A stretch of 64,000 bases of DNA from Mytilus edulis (Eukaryota): contig NC_092346.1 in assembly GCF_963676685.1 (NCBI RefSeq), positions 63,054,001 to 63,118,000 on the forward strand, written 5' to 3'. Positions 4,491-53,500 of this stretch are shown here, in pieces. The notes under the pieces are model-generated. The model saw only the letters and a list, made by a program, of their open reading frames with translations, was not told where the DNA came from and made no database searches. Each line of letters begins with the position of its first letter. Position 1 is the first letter of the stretch. Both the position numbers and the translations under genes were made by a program.

Positions 4491-7400
4491 ATGGCGACTA
4501 TGGTCAGATTGCTGCGGCAGACTGACCAAATCGTTGAAGATTCGTACGAAAGGAAAAAGTAAGCAAAATAAAACTTCATTCCTAAATGATTATATTGAAA
4601 ACAATCCCTGGCTATTTCAGAAAATGTACCTTAAAACCGGTTTATAAGATAAAATAACCCTAATCGGGACGAGTGAGTAATCCGTTCTCTTTCCTTACAT
4701 CTACCTGGGTAAGAGACTATCAATACTTTGAGTTCATTTAGACTTCAGTGCAGATTCAAGGAAAATAATGATCTAGAAGCAGCAATAACACACAACTAAA
4801 ACACTTTACTGTGAATTAATAAATATGAGGCAGGCATTACTGTCATCCTGTGAAACGTAGTCTGTATGAACTTTTTTATAATTCAAACATGTTAAAAAAA
4901 GAAACTGAAATACTGTAATGTTTCCGATTAGGGATTTTGGTTACGACGTTATTTAAGTTATGATATCATATTCAATGAAAACAAAGAAACGCTGTAATCA
5001 GGTGACATTTTTTTTCAAATCAAACAATTATTAAAAATAAATTGGTATTGAGTTCCTTCCTATATTTTACTAGACGGTAAATATATATTTTAATCAAAGT
5101 CTCATGCAAACAAGACTGGAAAAAGGAAGAAGATTTCTGCACAGATGCAGGGATTTAAAAACGTATGAAGTTGTGGGTGCCATATAGTTTTACCCTTGTC
5201 CGTCATTCCGTAATATCGTCATTCTGTAATTCTGTCATTCCGCAACAAACCATTATATGGAGTTTTTTTCTTAACGCCTGCAGATATTCGGCTGATTTTT
5301 GGTATGTGATGAGTTACAGATCAAGTTTGAGTTTCGTTCCGCTCCACTAATTTTTGCCAAAATTACGGGCTTTGAACTTTGATAAATTGTTGAAAATCAC
5401 AGTTATACAAACTTTTTTTCTAAATGCTCTCAGATATTGGGATGATTTTTGGCATGTATGTTAACCAAGATGAGTTACAAATCAAGTTTAAGTTTTGTTC
5501 TGCTCGGCTAATTTTTGCTGAATTTACGGGCTATGGACTTTGATGAATTGTTGAAAATCACAATATAGTTATACAGACTTTTTTTCTAAACACTTTCAGA
5601 TATTGAGCTGATTTTTGGTATGTGAGTTACTCATGATGAGTTACAGCACAAGTTTAAGTTTGTTTCGCTCGCCTAATTTTTGCTGTAATGTCGGGCTTTG
5701 GACTTTGATAAATTTTTTAAAATCACAGTTATACAGCGTTTTATCTAAATGCTTTCAGATATTGGGCTGATTTTTTATGTGTGTGACTATCATCATGTTT
5801 GTGTCCACATGTGTTATTGAAATTGCAGATTTTTCAACTTTTTGAGACAGGACCATTAGTGTCACTTTGACACATCTAGTTTTTGATTTTTTTGGTTTAT
5901 TTTTTACCATAATTGGGGACTATATATATCTCCCCATAATATGTGTTGGACACCAATTTTGATGGGCACAAGTGAACCACTAGATTAAGCAAGAAAGCAA
6001 TGAAAAGGAGATGGTAAAATTTATGAGGGCAAATTTTGATATTTTTTCCTAACTGTTTATTGCTACCTAAAATATGTATTTAATTTTTTACTTTCATATT
6101 TTAGTGAGGCTGAACTGCAGAGACAGAGAGAATATTTATCATCTGTTAAAATTCAAGCCAATTTTAGAGGATCTCAAGTACGATCATACTTCACGTAAGT
6201 AAATTTTTATGATAATCATAGTAATTTACTCATCTATAATCTATATGATAACATAATAGTCCTTTTGTCAGAGGCAAAGTTGTACTGAAAGTTGATGAAT
6301 AATTTTGAAAAACATTAAAATGGGGTTTTCCAAAAAAGTTTCAATGTTAAACATTGTTAAAGGGAAATTCCGCGATTTTTTACTTATCATCTAATTATGT
6401 TCATCTTAACATAAAAAACACATTTGCAAAGTTTTAAATTTATATTCCTTCTAATAACGGAGAAAATCAAGTATTTGAAACTTTTTTGGTTGAATTCTCG
6501 AGTGGGTCGTGACGTATTAGCCCGATTTATTGAATTCTGGGAAAAAATAAAATCTGTTTAACTCTTATAGCTTATCGACAATATACGTAATTAAAAGCGC
6601 ACAGCTGACGAATGGTCGTAGTCATTAACCACAATACAAGAATGAACGAAAATGAATATGCATATACCGTTTTGTTTTGATGAATTAAACTCCTATTAAA
6701 TTATCTCTAGTAAATGTTTTCGAATAAATTTCATTAATTATTGTTGAGAATTTTTTCATAAAATATTTATTGAACATTTTTACTGATATTGAACTGAAAT
6801 TATTTCAGTTCTATTTACCGTTATTGTTTTGATAATCATTTCAATGCAACTAAAGTGTGAGCAGAGTGTGTATATTATTTTGTAAAGGTCACTGTATATT
6901 TCTCGGCTTGAGGTCAATTTGTTTACCTTGTAGCTATTTAGCCGCAGGTGTGAGTTCAAGCGTACACAGGTATAAATGTTGTTATTTGGAAAGGATAAAC
7001 AGAAAGGGTTAGAAAGAGTATGCTGTCACGATTTTAATACACTAAGAGTTTAATACACGATGAGAATAAAGATGCAATAATTAAATTGTGTAAATTAATT
7101 GAAAATAAAATTTCAGATTCGTAATTCCGAAAGTGTATAAAAATAAAAGGAAACAATTTTTGATTACTTTCTTGGCGGTAATTGGCGTAAATGAAGTAAA
7201 AAATGGTAGTTTTAATCTTTAATAAAAACTAAATGCAATATAACCCAATTTGTTATACCATTGCCAATCTGTTTGATATCATTGACTTTACCGGAATTTT
7301 TTAACTTGTATTCAAATCTGGCTGTGTTTAAATTCTTATAAAACTATAGCAATTTTAAAGTTTTTAATTGAAAAAAAAATACAACATACAAAATGCATGA

Positions 7401-18447: not shown

Positions 18448-18649
18448 TGATATTGAAGCAGGGGAGACAATTTTCTAAATTCAAGCCAAGAAAAATGTAA
18501 TCTATAACTTACTTTGGATTTATTTTTTTTGAGGATTAGGAACATTTGCATTTTTGTTGATATTGGTTTTGGAAGTCAGCATATAAGCCTAAAGGAATGT
18601 TATCTTTGTAGAACATTTAAATTCATGTTTACCCGTATGAGAATTTTAG

Positions 18650-19017
18650 AGGGATTCCGCTTAAAATTAGCAGGAACCCAGGCGGAATCCGCTTAAAAAT
18701 CTAGACTTTTAGACGGAATTAAGGCGGACATGGAAAAAAGAAAAAAATCCGTCTAAACTGTTATATACCTTAGGCGAAATGTTAACTTTTTTCCTGCTGA
18801 GTTAACAGGATTTCTGTAGCAACAGATATAACACAGACGGAATGCTGGACTTAGTAAGATTTGTTTCATTTCTAAGGTGGAAATTGTACTTAAAAAATTT
18901 TTGTTCAATTTTATGAGGCGGAATTTGTACTTAGAAAATTTTGTTTATATTTCTGAGGCGGAATTTGTACTTAGAAAATTTTGTTTGAATTTCTGAGGCG
19001 GAATTTCGGACTTAGAA
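18650..19017. repeat. Left subterminal motif array of the EnSpm element, including five ~40-bp units each carrying an AGGCGGAAT-like core
   Basis: GAGGCGGAATTT at 18915, 18955 and 18995 (40-bp period), with degenerate units at ~18834 and ~18874. Outer copies occur in both orientations, e.g. AGGCGGAATCCGCTT. Confidence 0.9.
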
Positions 19018-19759
19018 TATTTTTCACTTTTTTCTTATGAAAAATATATTGATTTATTTGTATTTTTGCAAATATATGATTAGAGGGTGGTGATTATCTG
19101 AGCAATATATCCAACATTAGTCAAGTTATCCAACAGATCAGAGATGCACAATCCCAGTATGTGGTTTGTATCAGTGCAACTTAGAATCATTTGCAGGCTT
19201 TAACATCACATTACCATCATCATGACCCATATATCATACTTAGGCTTTAAAACAGAAATCTGTTGAATAAAATTTATTTGGAGACAAATCGATGTATCCT
19301 TATACAAATATGAACTACAGAATAAAACAACATTCATGACATGTAACAACTACTAGTTTTATTCTCTTGATTTTCAGAAATCTACATTCACAGTACATGC
19401 AGTACCACAGTTTGGATTAATTTTTCATCAACATGATTAATACAAATAATATTTTTTCCCTTTACATCAACATGATCAACATGATCAATATTTTCTAATT
19501 TTAGTTTTGTAGCTATCATAATTTGCATTAAGCACTGTGAAGAAAATATTAGTTTTATGCTTTCTCTTTACACATGCAGGGCATATCCAGCCATTTTTAA
19601 AAAGGAGGTTCCCAACCCAGAGTAAAGGGGCAGGAACTATATGCTCCCATTCAAATGCATTGATTGGCAAAAAAAGAACTTTTACTTTACTGTTTTTAGA
19701 AAAAGGTTACATATGTACATGTATATAAACATTAATGAAATACTTAGAAATATGAAATA

Positions 19760-22700
19760 TTAATCTGATTCCATTTTGTTTGGGAATTTGCAAATATATG
19801 AATACTGTGCACAATCATATGTAACTAGCATACAAGAAGTAGTTATGTTTTCAATTGGTATTACTTCCAAAAATGCAGTTTTTGAAACTCTTAGAATATT
19901 GGACTTTGGTGCATAATTTCCACATCTTAGTTTTTCAATAAAAGCCAAATAGTACTGTTGATCATTCTCTACAAGATTAATGAAAAACTTGACTTGTCCA
20001 AAATTAATTAATCCCCTACATTTGTATTCAATTACTGAGTTGTTCCTCTTTACCATACGAGTATATGACTTTCCATATACAATACAGTCCTTCAGTTCCA
20101 AACGTTTAAAGCATTGAAACTTCATTTGTATAAGCTCATATCCAAAAAAATTATGCAATGCCACATTTTCTGAAGCAGATAGAGTTATTTCTTTTATGCC
20201 ACCTAAAATATAGCCAATGTTTCCAATTTTTTTCATTCGCTTTAAAATGTATGGACATTCCATTGAGTTATAAATTGATTCACAAACTGATCCTTTTTCT
20301 ATGCAGTTCTGTTTTAACTCTGGCAACTTTTGAAGAAAAGATACTCCAGTTACTATTTGGCTATCAATATTCTGAGTACCACGAATCATTCTAATTAAGG
20401 CACCATTTTTGTCTTCAAAAGAGAAACAACTGTGAGTATATAAAGGACCTAAATTGCGAACACAATCAGCTAAATGTAACAATTGGTGAATATTTAAGCG
20501 CATGTAACATCCATTGTAAAGTCTTGGAAAATTCTTACAAAATTCCAACAAATACATTTCTGCTTCATTTACTTCTTCATCTGTTGATCCATATTTAAGA
20601 AGAACATGCATTGCATTTACCAACAATAAATAATGTGACCATCGTTCCTGATCAAGTATTCCATGTAGAACTGGAGCACCATAATATAACAGAAAAGATC
20701 GGTACTCTGAAGCCTTCCAGTATTTAAGGTCATTCTGTATTGTTCTAGGAAGTCGTGTAATTTCAGTAGTTGGACGTATACTAATAAGTCTTTCATCAAC
20801 CTGACACAATTTTTGGAAGAAGTTGAAAGGTTTAGAAGAATGTTTTTGAGCAAACCATAATTCTAATAAAAGTTTCTGTACTCCCAAAAGTACCCCATGC
20901 ATATAGTCAATGGCAATACCATTGACAATGTCAAATTCTGGGAAAAAAGACAACCATGATGGACCTTTAATTCCTTTTACTACAGAACTTGTTCCATGTG
21001 TACCATTCAATGCTTGACGAGCATTTTCAATAACATTGTGAACTGTTCTTTCTGGGCCTTTTGGATTTGCCTCATCAAATGGAAATACTCGCGTCTGACC
21101 TTTTCCAACTGCTGCAGAAGTGCCTTGTTGTTCACATTTCCAACAGGAGTATGCACCATTATATTGTATATGGTTGCATAATATACTTCTTGCTGGAAGA
21201 TCTGCTGTACCACATAACAATATTCCTTTTGATAGAAATGCTCCTCTTTTTGGAGAGAAGCATTCTATGCCATTATACAAATTTTTCATTGAATGTTGAA
21301 ATGGTTTGAGAAAAGTGCCCATTGCTGGTTTCTGACTTCCAAACCATAAGCTTGCCAGTATCATATTCTCTCTTTTCATTCGTAGTTTATACGGCAGTTC
21401 ATTTATTACCAAGAAAATAGGCCACACTGAAACTTTACTGCTCTTAAATACTGCTGCTCCATCAGTGTTAAAAGTAAAAGAAATGTTATCAGGATTGCTC
21501 AAAAGACCATTCTCTTTGTTTAAAGATTTATAAATTTTCCCGTCATAAATATCTTCGTAGGTTCCATCTGGTGTATTACGCATAAAGCGATGTTGCAATC
21601 TTTCATAGAAATTTTCCTGAGAAAACAAATTTTGTATTTGGTTCTGTAATGGTATTTCAAGAAAGTAATTTCCATCATTTTTACTAAATGGCTTTTTACA
21701 AAATTCATATGGACAATTCTTTAGAGAAGTATTTTCAATGGCTCCTAAACAATGGCCACAGTAGAAGTGTTTTACTAATGGAATACGCAAATTTGTAAAA
21801 AACTTTTTAAACTCATGGAGCTTCGTACACAGATTATGTTCAAATGGTAAAGCAAATGCAATAATGTTCAATAACACTTGTGTTCCTTCGCTAGACACAC
21901 CAAAATTTGTTGTAAATAGGGCAAGAAGTAGCATGAAAGCTCCTACTGTTACTGAAGCTCCAGGATAAAGTGGTCGTAAGTCATAGTCTGAATTCAAATC
22001 ATCATTCTGATCAAAATTAGTAAATGTATGTTCATCATCATTGGAATCTTCCCAGAGCTCGAAAGGATCTTCTAACTCTATTGTTTCTTCATAAAGGGAT
22101 TTAAGAATATCGTCCAGTTCTGGATCATCACTTTTTAAATCTATTTCTGTAGCTTGTTCAAAGGTAATTGCATCAACTTGGTCACAATGATCAATAGTAC
22201 TCTGCAGCTGAAATAAGCAAATACATAAAAATGTACATTTGTTGAGTAATGCACATGTATAAACATATCTTTAAGGTTTACATGCAAGTTATTTACATTT
22301 ATGTATGTGCCTGTCCCATTAGTCAGGAGTCTGTAATTCAGTGGTTGTCTTTTGTTTATGTGTTACATGTTTGTTTTTCATTCATTTTTTTACATAAATA
22401 AGGCCGTTAGTTTTCTCGTTTAAATTGTTTTACATTGTTTTATCAGGGCCTTTTATAGCCGACTATGCGGTATGGGCTTTGCTCATTGTTGAAGTCCGTA
22501 CGGTTACCTATAGTTGTTAATGTTTGAGTCATTTTGGTCTTTTTTGGATAGTTGTCTCATTGGCAATCATACCAATCTTCTTTTTATGTTACATTGTACA
22601 TTTGTATTAAGCAGTAATACATGTATCTAAAATTTATACACTGTGCAGGTTTAAAAAAGAATTGACACAGCAGGTTTTTTCTTAAACAGACCATAATTTT

Positions 22701-23304
22701 TTACATGTACAAATGTACAGATTATTATGAGATAGTTGTTTTGATTATGAGCTGCAATTTAGTAAAATGCTAAATCACGTTGATGTATTGGCCTCAGATG
22801 ACAACATGATGTAGCGATTACATGATCAATTGAAGGTCATCTATGTGTGATACTCATTCACGTGTTAATCTTTAAATAATCGTGTTTAAAGTTGCAAAAC
22901 TTACTTTTTTGTGTTTTTGTTTATTTGCGGAAGTTGAATATTTTTAAAACAATAACGGAGATGTTCCGGAATGCGGAAATATGTTCCGGATAAAAAAAAA
23001 TACCAACACTATAATATATAACATGCGACGTATAACCTACCATTGAGGCTTCTGGAGCAGGACTTTCTTTGGATAACAAATTGTTTTGAATTTCATCCTC
23101 AAACACGAAGCTTTGGTTAACTTCCGACTCAAAAATGTAGTTTTCGTGTAACTGTTCAGTTGATTCATTCGATGTTAAATCCAAAGTAGGGACAGAACCA
23201 TTAAGAGTCAACACTGGAATCGGAAGTCCATCCTTTTTTATTATTTCTTTTTGTCTGTATGGTCCCCTTTTTCTTTTCTTTTTCATATTGTATTCATCGG
23301 CCAT
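19760..23304 (-). CDS. CMC/EnSpm (CACTA, Tnp2/Transposase_21-like) DDE transposase, 2 exons, ~903 aa, uninterrupted
   Basis: Exon 1 is 23304-23041 (MADEYNMKKKRKRGPY..., NLS-like; donor ATG|GTAGGT). Exon 2 is 22207-19760 (acceptor TTTCAG, in frame with the 745-aa track ORF). Motifs: FYCGHC..CPYEFC, YEDIYDG, FTFNTDGAAVFKSS-SVWPI, CGTADLPARS, YNGAYSCWKC, IDYMHGVLLG, YWKASEYRSFLLY, NIHQLLHL-GPLYTHSCFSFEDKNG, RNNSVI. Confidence 0.93.
22300..22586. repeat. Abundant SINE-like/retroposon repeat inside the transposase intron
   Basis: Shares GCCTGTCCC..GTCAGGA, ACCTATAGTTGTT and AGTTGTCTCATTGGCAATCATACC..ATCTTC with other copies in the window: ~11272-11397 and ~13135-13237 (reverse), ~26985-27080, ~33355-33645, ~39865-40105. 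Confidence 0.8.
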
Positions 23305-23898
23305 GTTGAGGAGAAGAGTACTGTGTACAATTGGGGTTGCCAAAGGATGAATTAATTGCTTGTATTTGGAACCATTTTATTTGCTGCTATGTAGTCCTTT
23401 GAATAACTGTATATTTTTGTATACCAACTTTTCCAAGATCGACATATTTAAAGCCAATATTTTGTTCAGAATGGTGTTTTTTTTTTAATTATAAAAAATA
23501 TATTTTGTCATCAGTAAATCAAATTCATTAGACAAATCCGCTCCACAGATTATATTTTATGAAGAAAAATCAAAACTTATAAAAAAATACATGTTCTCAA
23601 AGTCAGGGTTTTTTATTTTTAGCCTTCTTAGGTCTTTAATTTAATATTCATATTAAAGTAAGTATATAACGTTTTTTTTTAAATAAAAATCTGTGATACA
23701 CTGCATGAGTTGAACCTGTGACGATCCTCATTCCGTTATATCAGTAGCATACGCCAGAGCTTACTGTAATTTGAAACCTCAATGACCAGTGCCATGCTGA
23801 ATAGCGTTTCCTGTAATTTGAAACCTGAAAGACCAGTGCCATTTTGAATTTTCATCGCCACACATCATCACAGAACACGTTTTTCGAAGTAAAAAAAT
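23305..23898. promoter_or_regulatory. Probable bidirectional promoter region of the transposase/BEN gene pair
   Basis: 594 bp separate the two divergent ATGs. The interval contains a 32-bp direct repeat (23764-23795 and 23811-23842, 30/32 identical). Confidence 0.55.
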
Positions 23899-26800
23899 AT
23901 GTATGCCTGTATTCATTGCGATTTTGACAATACATTGACTGTTCTTGGAAAGCAAAGCAAAAAGTTGAAGTTATTGGGAGAATTCAAAGTTAAAGAAAAG
24001 GTTGAACTGAAATGGTCAAAATCGGAAATCTACACAGGAATAATTGTAAAAATCAACGGTAAGTTACTTGCAATTTTTAACATTGAAGGAATTTTAATAT
24101 CTATTCAGCAGTTTTGTTTTAAGAGTTAATATTATTTTTTAAATTGTTTATGTTTTTAAAGGTACGATTTATTGTTTTTTTTTACGACTTAAATGTAATT
24201 TAAACAGTCACTTAATATTGACTACTATAAAACATGTGGTTATAGTAGTCTCAGTTAATATCAAGGATTTGGTGATAGTAAAACAATTATTCGTCTCGGG
24301 TAAAAAGGAAACAACCTTTGAGACGTGTTGTACAATTATTTTAAAGTATTTAAAAAGACGTAAGTTCTAAACTTTCTGAAAAAATCGTTGAACTACCACC
24401 CCCCTTTTAATCGGAAAATGTATCCTGATCGCGATCGATGTAGCCTCCCATAAGTTTACTAGACTTTATAATTTGTAATCAGTTCTGATATTTAACTTTC
24501 CTCGAAATCTGGACCATCCCTGCCAAATAAAAATATTTTATTAAACCTATGCATGTCATCGTGAGTATTTACCCCATGCTTTATGTTCACGTAAATATTT
24601 GTCGATAGATGTCGCTGCTTCGACGTAAACAATATCGTAAATACATGGTTCCCTGTACGAGTCATCGACTATAACGCCTTATATTTAACAGATATGCTAT
24701 TATTCTATAACAGTTTAAAATTTTCATTCATAAAAATCCCAACCGACAAGACGAAAACAAATTGAGATGGCATGCATTTAATCGAGCTAAGGGTTACAGG
24801 GAATTAAAACCTGATGCTTCTTAAAAAATCCAATTAAACGGTAATCAATTATAGTCATGATTTTTCGGATATTTTCTTTTTACATGAATATTATGACTTA
24901 AAGGAACCGATCACAAGATTTATGTCAAACTACTTTTCTCGGATTTTTTTACAGGGATGAGATGATTTTTTCAACTTTCTGATTTTTTTAACTTAAGATT
25001 TGACTAAATATTCAAGATGTTGATGTTTGTACTGCCACTAGTCCAATTGATAATCTGGTCTTCAGTGACTATTATTGTACATGTATATTAAAGTTATTTT
25101 GCTTTGACGCCTTACTGATCATGAGCAGACTTAGGCTTATAGAAAAATAATTAAATAGCCTTGCAGCACGTCAATAATATTTAGACTAATGCTTGCACAT
25201 GCTTGTCTTTCTTTAGTGGCGGATCCTGATGTTTTCATAAAAGAGGAGGGGATCACTGACGGTATCGGGATCGTTCGCCCTGATTACATATTTGCCCTAG
25301 GTTCGTTCACACTGAGTTTGTTCGTCCTGATAGTCCGTTCGCCCTGGGTTCGTTCGCCCTATATTAATTTATGATATGTATATGTTACATCAATGAACGA
25401 AATATATATATATGTATATATTAAAATTTATGTATATCTATTAAAAGTTAAATACAGAATATTTGCCAAATTTATATTAATAAAATAAAATTCTTGGCTG
25501 CATTGCTACACTTTATTTTATAATTACTTTTAATAACTGTTGATTGAATTTTGATTGCTGATTAGGTGTCATTTTGAAACCTGAGTTATCACTGATTGTT
25601 AGATAAATTGTCTTTGATGGATTAATATTGAGAATACAGTAACAAATACTTTGTAGTCATTGAATTCACAAAAACTTATCCTTGTATAGTCTTTAGTTGT
25701 TTTACATTTTCTTCTTGCTCAACAGTTGGACTCATCATGGCCAAAAATGATGAGTCCCTGGACTTGCCACCAAAAATCCTTAGCGAGAACCATGTTAATG
25801 TCGTCAGAACAGTAAAGTGAATTTGCAATTTGAGTTAGAATTTACATTCGGACTTAAAATATTTCGAATGCGATTTACACTATTTGGGTAATGCAAATTG
25901 AATTCAAATTATGTGTGAACGTTGCATGAAACATGTATTCTCACACTTTGATCTTTTAATTAAAATTCTTCACGCATGTACACATCTATGCTGCTCAGTA
26001 ATGAAATCAATTGTTATTTTTTGTAGAATCTCAAGACTTTTTGGATGAATTCGCTATAAAAGCCGTAACAAAGTTTTTGAAGCGTTCAAAGAGTAAAGAC
26101 TTGCCAGAGGAAATATACACATACAATCATACGGAACCAGAATTGAATTCAAAACGATGCAGGACAAGCACCAAAAAAATAAATGAAAGTAAGGAACAAG
26201 AGAGTCAATTTAGCCCCAAAAAGCAGAAAAAACATAAAGATGATGATGAACCTAACCAAGAGCCACCCATTGCAGTTACCAAAAAATCAAAAAAAAATCT
26301 GAAGCAAAATGAAAATGTCAAAGTCACAGATAAAGTATTAAATCCTACAAAGATTAAAGCTAATAAGAAAAAGGCAGAGGAGAATGTTTCTAAATCTCAG
26401 GGCAACCAGATGTTTGGCTTATCAAATTTGGAACTCCAGTTTGGTGATGAGAGTTCCATACATGACGAGACAGTCCTGTCAACATCTGAAGAAAGAAATA
26501 ACTTGGAGATATTGCCCTCTAAACCAGCAAGTTCTGCAGACCCTAACTTGACAGCTCCATCTCCAGACAGGAGCAACATATTGCCATCCTCTCCTTCGAT
26601 ACTTGCAGAAAGGAGCCATGCACCCTCCACATCTACACCATCTGCAGACAGGAGCAATACATTGCCATTAACCGCTTCGCTAGACGATTATACAAACCAA
26701 AGTGCAGGACCTATGCCATCTGCATATGCAGGAAGCACCTTGAAAGGGCCATTGCAGTCAACATCAGCAGAAACATCTTTGACAAGTACATGGAAGTTGT

Positions 26801-29800
26801 GTAAATCACTGTATAATGTGGATAATTCAGAGCAAACATGCTCTAATACAACATTAACAGAAATGAATTTTCCAGGTAATTTATTTACATGTATTATCAC
26901 ACTTAAAGTAAAGGCTTAAAAAGAGTACATGTAGTGTACACTGTGAAGAAGTTGATCTTTGAAAAAAATGAAAAAAAAGTTGTACCTGTACGGTGACCTA
27001 TAGTTGTTGATTTTTTGTTTCATTTTGGTCTTTGGTGGATAGTTGTCTCATTGGCAATCATACCACATCATCTTTCTTATATATATGTAGTTAAAAAAAC
27101 AAGGCCAGTTAACCTATCTACCCTACTTTATATTCTATCCTGAAAGATATTTTTTTGTCATTTTTCATTAAGCATTGTAAAAGTCAGAATGCGATCAAAG
27201 CCTTGGTCAGCTTGAATTGGAGTTGGAATTTATTTACCTCAATTACTTAGGGTGACAATGTACTGGTATATACTTACTACAGTGAACTACATGTAGAATG
27301 TTAAAAACCTCAAGCACATTTGTTATGTATGAAGCAGAAATAAACTCAAATGGAATTATCTTTTTCTGACCAGTTTTGATATACATGTACATTGTACTTC
27401 AAATTCATCTGTAAATGAACATTTGTTAAGATTAACATATTTCATTGCAATACTTGATGTACACATTTTTTGTATATGGCTATTGATAAAAAATACAATT
27501 TCATACGATAACTACGTCCCCTTAACTTAACTTAGTTTGACTTTAGTATATATGTCATACATGTATCTGTTAACTTTGAAATAACTGTATAATTTCAGTG
27601 CCATCCCCAGTTGTTCTGGAATTTCTTGAGTTGATAACAAACAAAGAAGTGCAAAACTTTTGCTTAAAACTTAGTCAGCATTACAAGTTTAAGAAACAAG
27701 AGGAAGTAATTACAGAAAGCAGTACAGATAAGGAGGTATGTTTTTGTATACATGTTTCTCTAAGAAATTGAATTACATTTTTTATGAATTAACAAGTCAT
27801 ATTCAACAATTGAAATACTGAAAAGTTGATATATTATTGTATAATTGGGAATAACATCACAGATTTTAATTTGATATATATGTCCAGAAATCTATTTATA
27901 GTCATGACAGTAAAATATTGTAGGTTTGAAATCAAAATTTTCCTTTTTATAAGCACAATATAAAAAAGAAAACAATTTTTATGAAATCTATGTTACAAAA
28001 CTAAAAATAATTCCAGAGATCTTAATTGTGAAAAACATCCTGTATTCACTTCTAAATACTTTTAGTATAAATAATAATAAATCCTTAAATGTCTAAAAAC
28101 TAATTTCTGGTGACAAAACTTGAAAAAAGTTTCGTAGGAAGATATAAACTGTTTCACGAAAAAGACTTTTATTAATAACATGAATATACATTGTACTTGT
28201 TTTTGGCTCTTATTTTCAGTACACTTAAAATTCAGAATTCATTAGAAAAAGGACAGATACATGTATCATCCAAGTATGTCAGTCTATAATAATGTTATTT
28301 CTCATTGCTTTCCCTATTTTTAAACTATTAACTTATTATTATTATTATTTTTTAGTTTCCTTTAGATGTCATGGAATCTTTGGACTGTGCTCCTACATAC
28401 AGTGAGCTCATGCCTCAGAAAAATCAAAGCCTTGGATTGAGGAGATCACCTAGAAAACATGTGTCTAGCTCTGCTTCCTTCACTGGTAATAGCACTTGTC
28501 AACCCTACTACCAAACCAGTGAAGAATGTACTAGTACATGTACTCAAAAACCAACTGAGAAATTTTCTGCAACTAAAGACTTAAATCAGTACCAAGAAGC
28601 ACCCATCCAACAGATTCAGATGTCACCTTTTCCCTGTCCGTCTCCTCTGAATTCTCAACATCAATCTCCTAACATTCAGAGTTCAACATTTTCCAGCCAA
28701 CATTTTCCGTCTCCTCTGAATTCTCAACATCAACCTCCTAACATTCAGAGTTCAACATTTTCCAGCCAACATTTTCCGTCTCCTCTGAATTCTCATCATC
28801 AACCTCCTAACATTCAGAGTTTAACATTTTCCAGTCAACAGAGTCCGTCTCCTCTGAATTCTCAACATCAACCTCCTAACATTCAGAGTTCAACATTTTC
28901 CAGTCACCAGAGTCCGTCTTATCTGAATTCTCAACATCAACCTCCTAACATTCAGGGTTCAACATTTTCCAGTCACCAGAGTCCGTCTCCTCTGAATTCT
29001 CAACATCAACCTCCTAACATTCAGAGTTCAACATTTTCCAGTCACCAGAGTCCGTCTCCTCTGAATTCTCAACATCAACCTCCTAACATTCAGAGTTCAA
29101 CATTTTCCAGTCACCAGAGTCCGTCTCCTCTGAATTCTCCATCGCAACATGTTATGCAGTCACATGATAGTGATCAATCTGATGACAATAAGGTAAAAAT
29201 TATTATATTTTCAAGAGTAAAAAAATGCCTGAGTTTTCAAGTTAATTATGCTTCTAACAATTATGAAGAATTTTATGTCTTAGATTGTTAGTGTTATTTT
29301 TAGATATAAGAAGGATGCAAAATTAATAAACACTGGGTTTCTCATGGATTGTATAATGTGTTTAGGGACTATAACATCATAATTGGTTCACGAGTAAAAT
29401 GTTTCTTTTTAGTGTTAAAGGGTAAACAATCCTCATTTCATGTATTCCGCCAGATAATATACTGTAAATTCAGAAATTATTGCGTGCATTTATTATTGCG
29501 ATTTTGTCATTTTACACTTGAATGCGATTTTAATTTTTACGATTTTGAGAAAAGTCATGCTTAAGTCAGTTCAAATATTACAAAATGCGAGTTTTAATTA
29601 TTGCGTTTACAACTCAGTCGCATTATTCGCAATAATAAAAACCTCGCAATAATTTCTGAATTTACAGTACATGATTTTAAGGAAGATATCTTTTTGACAT
29701 AAATTTAAGAGCATCTCTAACACTCAAACACGTACATGTTCACAAGCTAATATACATACATCATAAAAATGCAAACAAAGCAACTTAATGAATGTACTTA

Positions 29801-30867
29801 TATTTTTCAACAGTTGGATATAAGAATATTTTGTCTGACAGAACCTTGACATTAGACACCAGCCGTTTATCTTAAAAGGAAAAAGGGGGGAGGAAGTTTA
29901 AAAGTAATTCAGCATAGACTCTAATTTTTATTAATTTTATAACCGGATGATAAATACATCTTTTTTATTTTTCCAGATGGTTAAGTTACTGCAGACATCA
30001 GATGTACAAGTGAGGCGGGGTAGTTTAAGAAAGGCCAATACCAATGCAAGTAAAGGTGCAACTCAAAAATCATCTTTTAAGCTGGCTAGTTCATTGCTGC
30101 CCCTGTTATTCTCTGTTGATGAACTTGCAAATTCATGTGGACAAGGTTTAAAGAAGAAAGCCAATGATGTCAGAACTCCTTTGGATCCTGTTAGAATTGG
30201 AGTCTTAAAAGGTAAGGTTTTGTATTTCTTTATATTTTGATTATTTAATATATATATGCACACCTAAAAAGCCCATAGTATAAATGTAATGGGTAGGATC
30301 TTAATCTGGTACAGGTTTATAATCAATGTGAACTATTTTCAGATCAATAGCTAAGCCAAAAGCCAAGATTTTCTTTAATTTAACAATTCCATATATAAAG
30401 CATTGACTGAGTGAAATTCTTGAACTTAAATGTAACATATGTTAATAGTTTAAAAAGTGAAATTGACTTGTTGTTACTGTATTTTTAGTAAAACATGGAG
30501 TCAAAATCAGCTCTAAAGATAGGGAATTCAAGTCAATAATATGTCAAAATAATAAAGAAAAATACCAAATATTTATTGATAATATTTACATTTGACCAAA
30601 TTAAATCAACCAATAAAGGGATGCTCAGGAAAAAATATCTGACCTACTTATGCAGCTCACAATTTACCTGTATAACATAGACGAATTTGGTAAATTTATT
30701 TTAATTTAATCCATTATGCATGGTAATTTTAATTTATGTCTTCTTTTTTTTCAGATTATGTTACTGCTTGGTGTGCAAAACACAACAGATGCATGCAAGA
30801 TTGCCAGATCAATGATGCCGTTACAGAGCAAGTCAGCTATGCCCGAAAAAAAATAAAAAAATTGTGA
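23899..30867 (+). CDS. Transposon accessory protein with C-terminal BEN domain, 6 exons, ~776 aa
   Basis: Exons 23899-24058, 26027-26875, 27599-27735, 28356-29192, 29977-30211 and 30755-30867 join in phase (2331 nt) with GT-AG sites and no stops. The C-terminus FKLASSLLPLLFSVDELANSCGQG...RTPLDPVRIGVLKDYVTAWC...QINDAVTEQVSYARKK matches the BEN pattern (LL..LFS.EEL.NS...G, PLDP.R, terminal helix with ARK). The middle is K-rich and S/P/Q-rich low-complexity sequence. Confidence 0.85.
28638..29138 (+). repeat. Coding tandem repeat, 69 bp x ~7.3 (23-aa unit PSPLNSQHQPPNIQSSTFSSHQS), in exon 4 of the BEN gene
   Basis: Units start at CCGTCT 28638 and the eighth begins at 29121 (7 x 69). The copies are nearly identical and in frame. 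Confidence 0.97.
29462..29667. mobile_element. MITE (Tc1/mariner-type, TA TSD) in BEN gene intron 4
   Basis: Perfect 23-bp TIR CTGTAAATTCAGAAATTATTGCG / CGCAATAATTTCTGAATTTACAG flanked by TA on both sides; internal TTATTGCG repeats. Confidence 0.9.
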
Positions 30868-31118
30868 ACTTTCTTTATATCTGAAGAACACTGGAAAAAC
30901 ATAAAAATGTGACTTATAAATGAATAGGAAGAAATTGTGAAGGACTAAGATTGTCAATATTTTACATATGTACATTGTAGTAAATTATAGTTCAAATACA
31001 GTTGGCCAGGTTTGATAACATTTTTGGTATTTAATTTGTATGAGCCCTAGATATTCTTTGCAAGAATGCATAGAAATGGTAAAAACCTCAATCTGTAGAA
31101 AGAAAAATTTCTTTCTTT

Positions 31119-31480
31119 GAAGGCAGATTTTTTCCCCCTTTTCTTAAGGCTGATTTTTTTTCATATTCTAAGGCGGAATTTATTTCTAATTCTTTAGGCG
31201 GAATTTTTGCCACTTTGAAAGGCGGATATATTTTCCGTCTATTTAGGCGGACATATTTTCCCTCTCTTTAGGCGGATATATTTTTGTGAAATATTTTTCC
31301 TTTTAATAAGGCGGAATTTTTTCCCCCCTAAGACAGGCGGATAAATTAGCATATTTCGGCTCTATTCCGCCTGGAACCCGCCTGGAATCCATGTAAGAAA
31401 GATTCTTCGTGTAAAGGGTGACTTTAAAGGGATTCCCTCTAAAAAACCCGTCTAAAACCCGTCTAAAATACGCCTGGATT
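31119..31480. repeat. Right subterminal motif array of the EnSpm element
   Basis: Many AGGCGGA(A/T/C) copies on + (31170-31342), then inverted copies (TTCCGCCT, CCCGCCT, CCCGTCT twice, TACGCCT) toward the terminus. Confidence 0.9.
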
Positions 31481-31877
31481 TTTTCGTACAGGCACCTTAT
31501 ATACCCATGCAATCCTATGATATCCTTCGGATAATAATTATTCCAGAGTAGTTGAATTTGGATTGAAATAGCTATTAGCTACTACAAGTACTCCTTAGAC
31601 AATACTCCATTTAAAGTTAAAAAGAGGCATAACACTAGATAGGTAAATGACTTACTGCCACCCATATTAAATTTTTGCCTGTGTTTTGTGGTTCTTAGCA
31701 TTGTATATGAGTTTTATTAAATTTGCATGAGGCTGACTAAAGCTTAAGTGTGGAAGCAAATCATTTGCAATTTTCCAAGTTATAAAGGGCATAACTCTAG
31801 AACTGTAAGCCATTAATGATCAAGTTCCAACTCAGTCAGTGTGTTGTAGAAATGTAAGAGTGACAATTTTCTTTTAG

Positions 31878-32652
31878 TTTTTAACCGGATTTTTGTGACA
31901 AAAATGTCGGTTATTGATTTGGGGATGTACGGCGGACGGCTGGGCTGTCGGGTGGGCGGCAATCAAATGTTGTCCGTGCATTAACTCATGAACCGTTCAA
32001 CCAAAGCTTTTAAAATTTTAATATGTTGTTACTGACAACTAAATGAAGGTCAAGTTCAATAATGGCGATTTTGACTTTTACCGTTCAGGAGTTATGGTTC
32101 TTGAAAGATTGAAAAATGGAAGTTTCTAGTCGTGTCCGTGCATTTACGCATGAACTGTTATACCAAAGCTTCCCAAATTTCAATATGTTGTTACTAATGA
32201 CAAAATGGAGGTCATGTTCAATAATGACGATTTTTGACTTTTACCGTTCAGGAGTTATGGTTCTTGAAAGATTGAAAAATGGTGTTTCCAGTCGTGTCCG
32301 TGCATTTTCTCATGAACCATTCAACCAAAGCTTTTGAAATTTTTATATGTTGTTACTGATGACAAATAGAGGTCAAGTTCAATAATGACGATTTTGACTT
32401 TTACCGTTCAGGTGTTATGGTTCTTGAAAGATTGTAAAATGGCGTTTCCATTCACGTTGTTGCATTTACTCAGAACCATTTAATCTAAGCTTTTCAAATT
32501 TTAATATGTTGATACTGATGACAAAATGGAGGTCAAATTTGATATTGACGATTTTCACTTTCACCATTCATCAGTAATGGTTCTTGTGATATTGCCAGGA
32601 CACAAATAAATATTAATAAATCCGGTTTGCTGTCGTTGTGACAGCCTCTTGT
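31878..32652 (+). mobile_element. Non-autonomous Helentron-type element with ~4 x 161-bp array
   Basis: Subterminal inverted repeat AACCGGATTT / AAATCCGGTT, a GGCG/GACG microsatellite, repeats anchored at CCGTGCA 31974, 32136 and 32298, and a 3' hairpin GCTGTC-GTTGT-GACAGC followed by CTCTTGTT in a T-run. Confidence 0.85.
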
Positions 32653-50500: not shown

Positions 50501-53500
50501 ACCATGCAGACAGCATAAATGAATGATCATCATACATTAGGCTTATTATTAAAGCCATGAGTTTGAGGTTTGTAATTGATCATAGTAAGGTTAAAGCTTT
50601 AATGGGATTGCCTTATTGTATACCACTTTCACGGACATATTTAAAGATACTTGATTTTCTAATTGACAACATATGAGTTATGTTTTTCAACCGACAATCA
50701 CATGAGAACCAGCTGTGCACTTCTTACCGGTTTTATTCTTTATTCATATTTGATTTGAAGCGGACATTAATCGCGAGCTTCTCATGAATAACGAAAGAAA
50801 GCTAGCATCATCCCTTTTTGACTCCTTTGTTACTTTACGTTACGCTAGACTGATGATGACCTATAACTAGATTTTCCAATTTTGGACATGATATGTTCAA
50901 TGCATCTATCAAAACGAAATTTAAATAAACAGATACAGTAAAATAAAAAACAAATGATATGGAATATCCATTCATGACACACAATCAGTTCACGAAGAGC
51001 AACAAAACACACAAAAAAAACCCCAAAGAAACCGCGCTTTTATTGCTGTTCTTCATCTCAAAGAAAACATTGAGGCCTTCCACCCGGTTAAGGTTGTCTG
51101 ATATCTTGACTTAAATCTAGAAATTGAAAATGAGGATTGGTTGAAGACCTCAAAACAATTAACCGAGGATATCCATAGGGGAAAAGGTCCATACATTCAT
51201 TATCCACGTCTTAAAAGAAATTCAAAATTGCAGAAATATGTTTTGTGTCATTGATAATAACTAATGATTTTATTTTTAGCCTGAGATGATACTGGATAGC
51301 AAGATAATAAATTGGCCTGTAAGTATATATGATCTTATTATATTAAATACTACATTTTTGTTATTTAAATCAGATTTTGGTCTATACAGTTGTAGCATTC
51401 CATTTTCTATTCCAAAACCTTGCTATAACTTTTTGAACTTTGCAATTTTCACAGCTTTCTAAATATCTGACCTTAAGTTTAACTTCATAGAAACCAGGTA
51501 TATCCTGAATCGTACATGTATCAGTTTTCTACATGCAAATTTTCAACATACCTTTAAAGCCTTTTAAGAAAGAAAAAAATGACCTTTGAACAGAGGTACT
51601 CCAAAAATAACCCCTGGTTTTCTGGAAATCTTAAAGTAGATTACTATGGAGCGCATGAATCCTGAATTTTTAATGCAAACTCACAGACCCATAATTTTGG
51701 CTCAAAATGGTCTGAATATATTTCTCTTTCACCAAAAGTTTCATTTCTGCAAATGTGTTGGTTAGTTAGGGTTAACAAGGACATCAAAAGCACTATTTTG
51801 TGTTAGAGAAGGGCTACTTTCACATACGTTCTAAATTTGAGGGATTATCGATGGTCTGACACCTTAATACTTTTTTTTATCATTGTTAAGCTAGCACTTT
51901 TCTAAATTGTTTCAAAAAAGTACTTTAAAGAAATGAAATGCAATATTCCAATTTTAAGGAATCTTTTTAATTTACGTGTCATCAATATGTCTATGACCTT
52001 CTGGCACTAAGTGTAATTATCTAGTCTTATCTATCCCACAACAGTATATACTTCAGATAATTTAAAAGATACACCTGTAAGTTATGTGTTTAATAATTGA
52101 TGTCATATATTAGTTCCTGCTACTACCATTACAATAGAAGAATCTTCAGTAAGATATCTGAACTTTTAACATACAATTGTTATCATTTGAACTATATCTA
52201 TTTTATTTTTTTAATTTCAGGATATGGCTCCAAGATATATGACCTCTAGAAAGATTGGAAATTCTGAGTACTCCAATGCTTATATCCCAGAGGTAGTTGT
52301 TGTAAAAAAATAAGAAGCACTTTAAGTATCACAGTCACCGAGGTCAAAACTAATCAGATATTGTACTCTATTTCTTTATAGACTCAATCCATTTTATATC
52401 ATTGTCCAAGTAACTTGATTTCAACATATTTGTCCGATATAATAAGATTTTGACTAAAGTTCAGACATTACATATGATGCACCAACTTGTATGAATTATA
52501 CTCCGATGATATCGCTTGTACAGTTTATTTGCAATACTTATAATTTAAGATATAAGAACGGAAAACAAAGAAAAGAAAAAATGGAATCGAAAAAATCAAA
52601 AGATCTATTATTATTGGTCAACTAGTTCAATTTCGATATAAAATAACTATTTTTCTATATGAAATTCTCAGAAAAAAAATTATAGATTTTTCAATATGAA
52701 ATTTTCTGAAAAAAAGGGTCTTTAATGAGTATTTTTCTTCTAACTTCAGTTTTTCAGGACTAATTCGTTGCCACCAAACCATCCTAGACTAAACACTTCT
52801 ATTATGAAACTACCACTTTCTGCCAAACATGTTCACCCACAACGAGGAACTAGTATAGCATTTGGAAGTGACGAGCCACAGTAAGTCAAAAAGAGTAAAA
52901 TTTAACCAAAGCTAAAGTTTATGACATGCTGTGAAAATTCTCTTTATTATCATGACAAAGTGAAAAATTTAAAATCTACTCCAAGTGAGTGAATTTCAAT
53001 TATAGATTGAAAGCAAACAATTTTTATTTAAAAAGTACTAGCTTTAACAGGATTAAACTAACCTTATGCATATAGGCATACAGTTAAAGGAAAGATATTC
53101 TCCAAATACTCCCAAAACAAATGTCTGCAATAATTAATATTTATATACTTTATGTATGCAGAGTATTTAGCGAATTTCAAAGAGCTTATGGTGTTGGTGA
53201 TGAACCTACAAGTAAAATGGAAGGATTAAATGATGGCAAAAACTCCGTTATCACAAACATGAAGCTGATGGAGAAAGAATCACATGTATTCAGAACAGGA
53301 GATTATGACAATATAGGTAAACCATTGATAGACCATGTGATTGACCTAGAGAGCATTATGTTACATTATAAACCTTGTGATTGACCTAGAGAGCATTATG
53401 TTACATTATAAACCTTGTGATTGACCAAGAGAGCATTATGTTACATTATAAACCTTGTGATTGACCAAGAGAGCATTATGTTACATTATAAAACGCCGTG

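What the first reader, a model, noticed from the sequence alone, without database searches (positions are those of the whole stretch)
18650..19017. Left-end AGGCGGAAT array with 40-bp phasing: candidate BEN binding platform
Seen: roughly a dozen AG(G/A)CGGA-like copies in 370 bp. The inner five sit in 40-bp units (close to four helical turns) and the outer ones form inverted pairs (AGGCGGAATCCGCTT). The motif keeps a CpG in otherwise CpG-poor DNA. Established: BANP and BEND3 BEN domains read CpG-containing motifs in a methylation-sensitive way. Inference: binding, and hence transposition, could be gated by host methylation.
Basis: partly seen in the sequence, partly recalled or inferred. Interest (0 to 1): 0.7.

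Follow-up and report, generated by a model that had tools for sequence, protein, structure and literature searches.

The report
Mussel transposon end array, BEN partner
This repeat cluster is the left-end array of a young, intact cut-and-paste transposon in a mussel; it is likely bound by the element's own BEN-domain protein, and sister transposon families carry their own motifs, about half without CpG, so a methylation switch is unlikely to be the design.

Summary
The array is real: 12 AGGCGGA-like copies, five spaced 40-41 bp apart. It is the left subterminal region of a 12,861-bp En/Spm (CACTA, animal CCC-type) transposon (18632-31492), which has an identical sister copy and ~3.2-kb non-autonomous relatives. 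The motif recurs at the right end and in family copies. The element encodes an intact Tnp2 transposase and, head-to-head, a spliced gene ending in a BEN domain nearest NACC1.
Nine families located end to end in this genome each pair a BEN-like gene (six supported, three weak) with a family-specific array. Similar motifs go with similar recognition helices, but transposase and BEN trees largely agree, so the binder is not proven. A 40-42-bp unit recurs at the same end in 5 of 9 families, and an invariant second word in 5 of 9.
Methylation gating is poorly supported: 7 of 13 motifs lack CpG, the methyl-sensing arginine position is serine, and bivalve methylation is mostly genic.
This scan noted the En/Spm + BEN layout before in sponge, urchin and shark DNA; I did not find it in print. 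Verdict: new variant of a known kind (a likely TnpA analogue).

The parts
18632..31492 (.). Whole En/Spm (CACTA, animal CCC-type) DNA transposon, 12,861 bp
   Evidence: Sister copy G000:C3:62837945-62850805 has 0 mismatches over 12,861 bp and different flanks
18630..18631 (+). Left copy of the 2-bp target site (TA)
   Evidence: 2-bp duplication in 11 of 19 paired copies; here the two sides differ at the first base
31493..31494 (+). Right copy of the 2-bp target site (CA)
18632..18643 (+). Left terminus (starts CCC), imperfect inverted repeat of the right terminus
   Evidence: Boundary shared by family copies
31481..31492 (-). Right terminus
18648..18778 (.). Outer left array: motif copies in both orientations, with inverted pairs
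   Evidence: largely conserved in 9 related copies
18835..19035 (+). Inner left array: five 40-41-bp units, each family motif + family-invariant ACTT-containing word + A/T tract
   Evidence: 3-4 more degenerate units in non-autonomous copies
19760..22207 (-). Transposase, main exon (Tnp2 / Transposase_21 domain), open
   Evidence: PF02992 E 5e-16, over cut-off; covered by contigs of a probable RNA run
23041..23304 (-). Predicted first transposase exon; gives an open 902-904-codon model
   Evidence: GT-AG model only; junction not seen in the listed reads
23895..24058 (+). Possible upstream exon of the BEN gene, Tudor-like (weak); 5' structure unresolved
   Evidence: Tudor_2 E 0.033, below cut-off; my join through 25726-25816 was not open
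26027..29192 (+). BEN gene exons 26027-26875, 27599-27735, 28356-29192: low-complexity, SPRK motif, 69-bp coding repeat
   Evidence: Open frame of 722 codons from 26027; introns skipped in contigs of X15 and X17; matches P0001
29977..30211 (+). BEN domain, first exon
   Evidence: Pfam BEN E 0.0029 for P0001 (below cut-off); relative P0003 over cut-off; splice to next exon in X17
30755..30867 (+). BEN domain, last exon with the predicted recognition helix alpha5, and stop
   Evidence: Aligns to NACC1 alpha5; kept in the ~3.2-kb non-autonomous copies
31121..31475 (.). Right subterminal array of the same motif, mostly 24-26 bp apart, inverted copies near the end
   Evidence: 9 exact and 14 near copies against 1.4 expected, 0 of 2000 controls

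Best explanation
The array is the left subterminal repeat region of a young two-gene En/Spm transposon, and its motif is likely the binding site of the element's own BEN-domain protein, which would act like plant TnpA by coating both ends and helping the transposase pair and cut them. Shown: the element, both arrays, both genes, splicing of the BEN gene, trans-mobilised short copies that keep both arrays, and family-specific motifs in sister families. Inferred: BEN monomers or dimers read the motif through helix alpha5, the inverted pairs suit dimers, and the SPRK and A/T-tract features add minor-groove contacts. Also inferred: the ~41-bp unit places a BEN site beside a second word, the same in different families, that a more conserved partner (transposase or host factor) would read. 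CpG in this family's motif is likely incidental.
For: Element and copies. Genes. BEN fold: the family profile hits NACC1 at E 1.5e-13; a model of homologue P0004 (pLDDT 94.5) matches 8yzs and 4ix7; Atlas neighbours carry PF10523. All 9 families located at both ends have a BEN-like exon about 0.5-4 kb inside the right end, an array at each end and their own motif. Families with the same motif share 3-7 of 5-8 alpha5 core residues at 16-50% body identity; C6:82.2 and C7:12.5 share 5 of 8 at 16% body identity. The CATG core seen in 6 of 13 motifs is the known NACC1 BEN core. Plant precedent: TNPA binds subterminal repeats and is needed for transposition (PMC2613891); Arabidopsis TnpAs bind family-specific motif clusters (10.64898/2026.08.24.746577).
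Against: No binding data. Transposase and BEN trees largely agree, so co-variation fits either protein. At the one discordant node (C6:82.2, weak BEN support 0.80-0.86) the motif follows the transposase tree. Some pairs with different motifs also share 4-6 of 8 alpha5 residues. The BEN call is weak for the three GCCGCA families: leave-out E 1.7, 420 and no hit, hhalign E 0.003 with probability 9%. A separate clade with AACGTT-type end arrays showed no BEN hit. The preprint reports that the DNA-binding domain is usually fused to the transposase in animals. Inner-unit motifs are degenerate in the amplified non-autonomous copies.
Confidence: 0.6

Rival explanations
1. The transposase itself reads the family motif, and the BEN protein does something else.
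For: Motif groups match transposase clades. The preprint finds a tandem helix-turn-helix domain fused to Spm transposases in animals and fungi.
Against: Each family keeps a BEN-like gene whose alpha5 is similar where motifs are similar; CATG cores match known BEN specificity. I could not test for the fused domain: the single-sequence model was unusable (pLDDT 33).
Confidence: 0.17
2. BEN binds the arrays, but to protect or insulate the element (anti-silencing, boundary or self-repression) and not to build the transposition complex.
For: Arabidopsis TnpAs cause loss of methylation at the termini and activate cognate copies. Both ends and the gap between the genes are CpG-rich while coding parts are depleted (0.37). 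Elba is described as a boundary factor (title and abstract start).
Against: I saw no motif cluster in the promoter gap between the two genes. Gene-less short copies keep both arrays, which fits a cis need for transposition.
Confidence: 0.12
3. One reading: BEN binding is blocked by CpG methylation, so host methylation gates transposition.
For: 6 of 13 family motifs contain CpG. CpG sites in 12 non-autonomous copies carry transitions 2.1-2.6 times (odds) as often as other C/G (p 0.03; p 0.06 without the two diverged copies), so some copies are methylated at times. BANP senses methylation only as an oligomer, which arrays could favour.
Against: 7 of 13 motifs have no CpG, and their right ends have CpG o/e 0-0.35. 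The BEND3 Arg810 column is Ser, Ser, Ala, Ala, Gly, Gly in the six CpG families. Motif CpGs decay like other CpGs (5 of 18 against 5 of 17). Bivalve methylation is about 10% and lies in gene bodies and young genic TEs (PMC11292947).
Confidence: 0.08
4. The 40-bp array is a neutral minisatellite and the motif has no binder.
For: Units 2-4 are recent duplicates; unit number differs between subfamilies; one unrelated 40-bp minisatellite lies in the flank.
Against: The motif is at both ends, in both orientations, outside the tandem units. The 40-42-bp lag is best at the same end in 5 of 9 families whose transposases are 30-60% identical, against 1 of 56 flank windows.
Confidence: 0.03

Closest known systems
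Maize En/Spm with TnpD and TnpA, and plant CACTA elements (PMC2613891, passages; PMC1636069, passages)
   Same: Tnp2 transposase; subterminal repeats in both orientations at both ends that differ between families; a second element-encoded DNA-binding protein; non-autonomous derivatives keep the ends.
   Different: Ends start CCC, not CACTA; 2-bp, not 3-bp, target duplication; the second protein is a separate head-to-head gene with a BEN domain, not a splice product with tandem helix-turn-helix; binding not shown.
Arabidopsis Spm TnpA systems (bioRxiv 10.64898/2026.08.24.746577; abstract, passages, sections 6 and 21)
   Same: Family-specific 7-10-bp motif clusters at the termini; motif groups mirror element phylogeny.
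   Different: The paper finds TnpA-like proteins only in flowering plants and derives them from the transposase; it does not mention BEN. Here the partner has an unrelated fold.
Animal TRC elements, SmTRC1 of Schistosoma (PMC1636069, passages)
   Same: CCC ends, Transposase_21, 2-bp direct repeats in about half of copies (7 of 14 there, 11 of 19 here).
   Different: The word 'subterminal' does not occur in that paper, and the passages seen name no domain for the second protein.
NACC1 BEN domain (PDB 8yzs, 7bv9; PMC11472053 passages and Discussion; PMC8887127 passages and section 11)
   Same: Best sequence and fold match; alpha5 aligns without gaps (Asp462 to Glu, Thr465 to Ser, Arg469 to Lys).
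   Different: No BTB domain seen; about 21% identity for the modelled homologue; this family's motif is not CATG, though 6 of 13 sister motifs have that core.
BANP and BEND3-BD4 (PMC11472053, PMC11514455 passages)
   Same: BEN fold; CpG in the putative site.
   Different: Weaker matches; no CGCG or CACG core; the methyl-clashing arginine position is serine.
Red-algal Plavaka (EnSpm) elements with PAG3 (bioRxiv 10.1101/2025.02.11.637652, passages)
   Same: EnSpm element with an accessory DNA-binding gene proposed to bind its own repeat arrays.
   Different: ParB-like accessory protein; arrays beside the gene; algal host.

Membership tests
En/Spm (CACTA) superfamily, animal TRC type | Transposase_21 (Tnp2) domain | tested here: met
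   PF02992 59 bits against cut-off 28.6
En/Spm (CACTA) superfamily, animal TRC type | Short terminal inverted repeats starting CCC | tested here: met
   Left end starts CCC, right end reads CCT on the other strand; imperfect pair; sister families start CC or CCC
En/Spm (CACTA) superfamily, animal TRC type | 2-bp target-site duplication | tested here: met
   11 of 19 paired copies; one 32-kb pairing dropped as spurious; this copy mismatches at one base
En/Spm (CACTA) superfamily, animal TRC type | Subterminal repeats at both ends | tested here: met
Plant TnpA family | [quoted passage not shown] | tested here: not met
   The second gene ends in a BEN domain; it may work like TnpA but is not a member
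Plant TnpA family | Binds the element's subterminal motif and is needed for transposition | not testable with these tools
   Needs binding and transposition assays
BEN domain | Pfam PF10523 over the curated cut-off | tested here: inconclusive
   P0001 18.2 bits against 23.2; close relative P0003 23.6
BEN domain | Five-helix BEN fold with C-terminal recognition helix | tested here: met
   Profile to NACC1 E 1.5e-13. The model is of homologue P0004 (55-57% identical to the window's exons), not of the window protein; it has five helices and matches 8yzs at TM 0.71
Methylation-sensitive BEN group (BANP, BEND3) | Arginine at the BANP 316 / BEND3 810 site of alpha5 | tested here: not met
   Serine by profile alignment to BEND3-BD4, a weak match (E 0.07) whose register agrees with the NACC1 alignment
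Methylation-sensitive BEN group (BANP, BEND3) | CGCG or CACG core in the site | tested here: not met
   Motif core is GGCGG or GACGG
Methylation-sensitive BEN group (BANP, BEND3) | Binding blocked by 5-methylcytosine | not testable with these tools
   No methylome or binding data on hand

The most novel reading that the evidence does not exclude
Animal En/Spm transposons use a captured BEN domain as their own TnpA, independently of plants. Each family's recognition helix evolves with its end motif, giving a natural BEN-DNA code of a dozen or more pairs in one genome. The ~41-bp unit is a two-protein platform: a variable BEN site beside an invariant site for the transposase or a host factor, repeated about every four turns. 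Such elements could be a source of host BEN transcription factors such as the NACC1 type.
Probability: 0.3. Interest if true: 0.75.

Novelty: new variant of a known kind. Interest (0 to 1): 0.5.

Why it matters
Subterminal arrays bound by a helper protein are textbook for plant CACTA elements, so the array alone is ordinary. A recent preprint finds TnpA-like helpers only in flowering plants. If BEN is the binder, animals reached the same two-part design with a different fold. The set of families gives ready-made protein-motif pairs for testing how BEN helix alpha5 sets specificity, and two identical intact copies give a candidate active animal En/Spm element. The shared ~41-bp unit with its invariant word is a small, testable puzzle about how transposon ends are assembled.

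Tried and rejected
Methylation gate as the design principle: rejected on motif diversity and the missing arginine. Exact helical phasing: rejected at 10.5 bp per turn; no phasing over all copies or at the right end. Using trees to choose between BEN and transposase as binder: not informative, because the trees largely agree; the transposase tree is the quick version and the BEN tree is FastTree on about 100 columns. Transposase fold without alignment: unusable. DUF4806 search of the genome: no candidates, and the control rang nowhere, so it says nothing. Pfam scan of 94 of 203 filtered frames from other clades: no BEN outside C6:82.2; it also missed exon-split BENs, so absence is not shown. 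Metagenome contigs with P0004: 585 pattern matches, none confirmed, so there are no pairs from other species. Transposases upstream of BEN-only loci: 1 weak hit in 11 regions, so four of the 13 motif families have no transposase or left end. Atlas search for the GCCGCA-family exon: sequence not held. Scan look-ups by place and by sequence returned nothing. Abhiman 2008 and Pan 2023 are not held, and Repbase could not be searched. No complex prediction was run, since protein-DNA binding is the open question.

Full report
Observation. In 18656-19002 there are 8 exact AG(G/A)CGGA copies and 12 within one mismatch of AGGCGGA; first-order resampling gives a mean of 0.66 and 0 of 2000 reach 12. Five inner copies are 40, 41, 40 and 40 bp apart, and outer copies form inverted pairs. 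CpG o/e is 1.2 here against 0.58 for the window. The spacing is not true helical phasing at 10.5 bp per turn, where the fifth copy ends up 120 degrees from the first after passing through 189; at 10.2 the drift stays under 80 degrees. One inner copy lacks the CpG, and units 2-4 are recent duplicates.

The element. Searches of the own genome with each end returned 37 and 42 matches, lower bounds, of which I fetched 30 each. Pairing ends gave a 12,861-bp element at 18632-31492, a second copy 234 kb away with 0 mismatches and different flanks, and shorter copies of 2-6 kb, most near 3.2 kb. Of 20 pairings I dropped one of 32 kb; 11 of the other 19 have a perfect 2-bp duplication and 7 differ at the first base only. 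Two pairs among the 19 share flanks and are duplicates of one insertion. The minus strand encodes a Tnp2 transposase (PF02992, E 5e-16), open as a 902-904-codon two-exon model. The plus strand carries a spliced gene matching the annotated mussel protein P0001; contigs of runs guessed to be RNA skip its introns. CCC ends, Transposase_21 and 2-bp repeats in about half of copies are the marks of animal CACTA-type TRC elements (PMC1636069, passages). The same motif forms a right-end array of 14 near copies, mostly 24-26 bp apart. In 9 related left ends, motif positions match the window at 80-93% against 78-82% elsewhere, higher in 8 of 9; these copies are kin, not independent.

The BEN domain. P0001 scores below the Pfam cut-off and its relative P0003 just above. 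A 26-sequence profile built from 52 representatives hits NACC1 at E 1.5e-13 and BEND3 at 6e-4 or weaker; BANP is not among the 9 hits. A model of homologue P0004 (pLDDT 94.5) matches NACC1 and Insensitive first. NACC1 reads CATG through alpha5 residues Asp462, Thr465 and Arg469 and is unaffected by methylation (PMC11472053, passages and Discussion). BANP Arg316 and BEND3 Arg810 are the residues modelled to clash with 5-methylcytosine (PMC11514455, passages; PMC8887127, section 11). By profile alignment BEND3 Arg810 falls on the column of NACC1 Thr465, which is serine in this element. SP(R/K)(K/R) motifs occur in 22 of 30 longer homologues; their role in minor-groove binding is recalled, not tested.

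Sister families as a natural experiment. A transposase search gave 79 matches from 100 scored candidates. I fetched 20-40 kb around 30 of them, chosen mostly for long open frames, and put 19 plus the window into a tree. One clade of 10 holds the window; for 9 of these I located both ends. Each of the 9 has an array at both ends and a head-to-head BEN-like gene ending about 0.5-4 kb inside the right end. BEN support is independent for four, passes a leave-out test for two (E 4e-7 and 0.025) and is weak for three. Four more families came from BEN hits with a right-end array but no transposase found. Top words at the right ends are GGCGGA, GGCGTA, TCCGAA, GCCGCA-type (three families), TCATGA (three), CCATGG-type (three) and GTAGGA: 6 of 13 with CpG, 7 without. 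Among the 30 Pfam BEN loci fetched, 8 had a dense array downstream, 2 a short one, and 20 none that I recognised; most of those 20 look like other BEN subfamilies. Families with one motif share much of the alpha5 core even at low body identity, but some pairs with different motifs do too. The transposase tree groups families as the motifs do, and the BEN tree agrees except for one weak node. So motif, BEN and transposase travel together, and the binder cannot be read from the trees.

The 40-bp unit. The best repeat lag in the first 900 bp of the transposase-3' end is 40-42 bp in 5 of 9 families, at 62-95% identity; one more family has a 42-bp array at the other end. Among 56 flank windows 1 has any such repeat. 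Units of five families, four of those five plus C6:82.2 with about 60-bp spacing, carry the same ACTT-containing word on the same strand just 3' of the family motif. I defined the word on these families. A 17-letter version has 91 matches in the genome against 1 for the reversed control. Of the first 30, 27 lie in copies of two families already used, 1 in a new family with CCC end and ~40-bp units, and 2 in no clear element. Its binder is unknown; from recall it resembles a nuclear-receptor (HNF4-type) site, which I did not test.

Methylation. In 12 short copies, columns with a transition are 14 of 70 for CpG bases against 91 of 842 for other C/G (p 0.03), and 5 of 70 against 24 of 842 without the two diverged copies (p 0.06): a mild signal. 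Motif CpGs behave like other CpGs (5 of 18, 5 of 17). Bivalve methylation is about 10% and sits in gene bodies and young genic TEs (PMC11292947, passages). A family with a closely related BEN and the same terminal 10 bases has a CpG-free motif. Methylation could still affect this family's sites, but it is not the shared logic.

Mechanism. In maize, TNPA binds the subterminal repeats and both TNPA and TNPD are needed for transposition (PMC2613891, passages). Arabidopsis TnpAs bind family-specific motif clusters; the same preprint finds TnpA-like proteins only in flowering plants and a fused DNA-binding domain in animal transposases (10.64898/2026.08.24.746577). I put 0.6 on BEN serving as the TnpA-like end-coating helper, 0.17 on the transposase reading the motif, 0.12 on a chromatin-protecting role, 0.08 on a methylation gate and 0.03 on neutral repeats.

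Novelty. Searches for BEN with EnSpm or transposase terms gave 0, 488, 9, 57, 3 and 28 papers, of which 0, 30, 9, 15, 3 and 15 were listed. No listing described this pairing; I saw most only as titles and abstract starts. Abhiman 2008, Pan 2023 and Repbase were not available, and the preprints' supplements were not seen, so prior mention is possible. This scan's own notes report the same layout in sponge-type, sea-urchin and shark DNA; they are unchecked leads. Verdict: new variant of a known kind, interest 0.5.

Noticed in passing
window 18630-18631 and 31493-31494; paired copies: 7 of 8 imperfect target duplications differ only at the first base. Flank contigs from four other runs stop matching at 18633 and one runs on for 221 other letters, which fits an empty site with TA as the target. 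The odd base would then be next to the right end, perhaps carried from a donor flank (the sister copy has C there).
   Followed up: partly
G000 C7:12.47-12.50 Mb; L018; L228; C6:82.15 Mb: En/Spm elements sit inside or beside other En/Spm elements: the C7:12.5 element splits the BEN gene of a CCATGG-type element, and a copy of this family lies in the left-end region of the L324 family.
   Followed up: partly
L324 (G000:C3:14265776-14268792): A further family with CCC end, GATGGC/GATGGA-type motif and ~40-bp units carrying the invariant word; genes not examined.
   Followed up: no
L133-L142, L129-L130, L172: A separate clade with ~700-codon transposase frames has AACGTT/AACATT-type end arrays and a second gene downstream in tandem, with no BEN hit; its DNA-binding domain is unidentified.
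   Followed up: partly
L113-L126, L158-L159, L167-L170: A clade with transposase frames of up to ~1000 codons showed no clear end arrays and no BEN in the regions fetched; ends were not located.
   Followed up: partly
window 28636-29139: A 69-bp coding repeat (7.3 copies, 23 residues rich in S, P, Q) in the BEN gene; shorter related repeats in P0002.
   Followed up: no
window about 19460-19890, 22300-22580, 26985-27085, 29440-29690: High-copy small repeats inside the element's introns and 3' region, present in both identical copies.
   Followed up: no
window 53323-53492: An unrelated 40-bp minisatellite, 4.2 copies, 96% matches.
   Followed up: no
window 5307-5775 and 31971-32586: Arrays with 161-162-bp units, probably common satellite-like repeats.
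   Followed up: no
L027-L030 (G000:C7, 85-89 Mb): At least four copies of a 59-bp left-end fragment with identical flanks, part of a larger duplicated block.
   Followed up: no
L173-L189 and similar: Multi-copy BEN genes of a BEND3-like type without a downstream end array; they may belong to other mobile elements.
   Followed up: no
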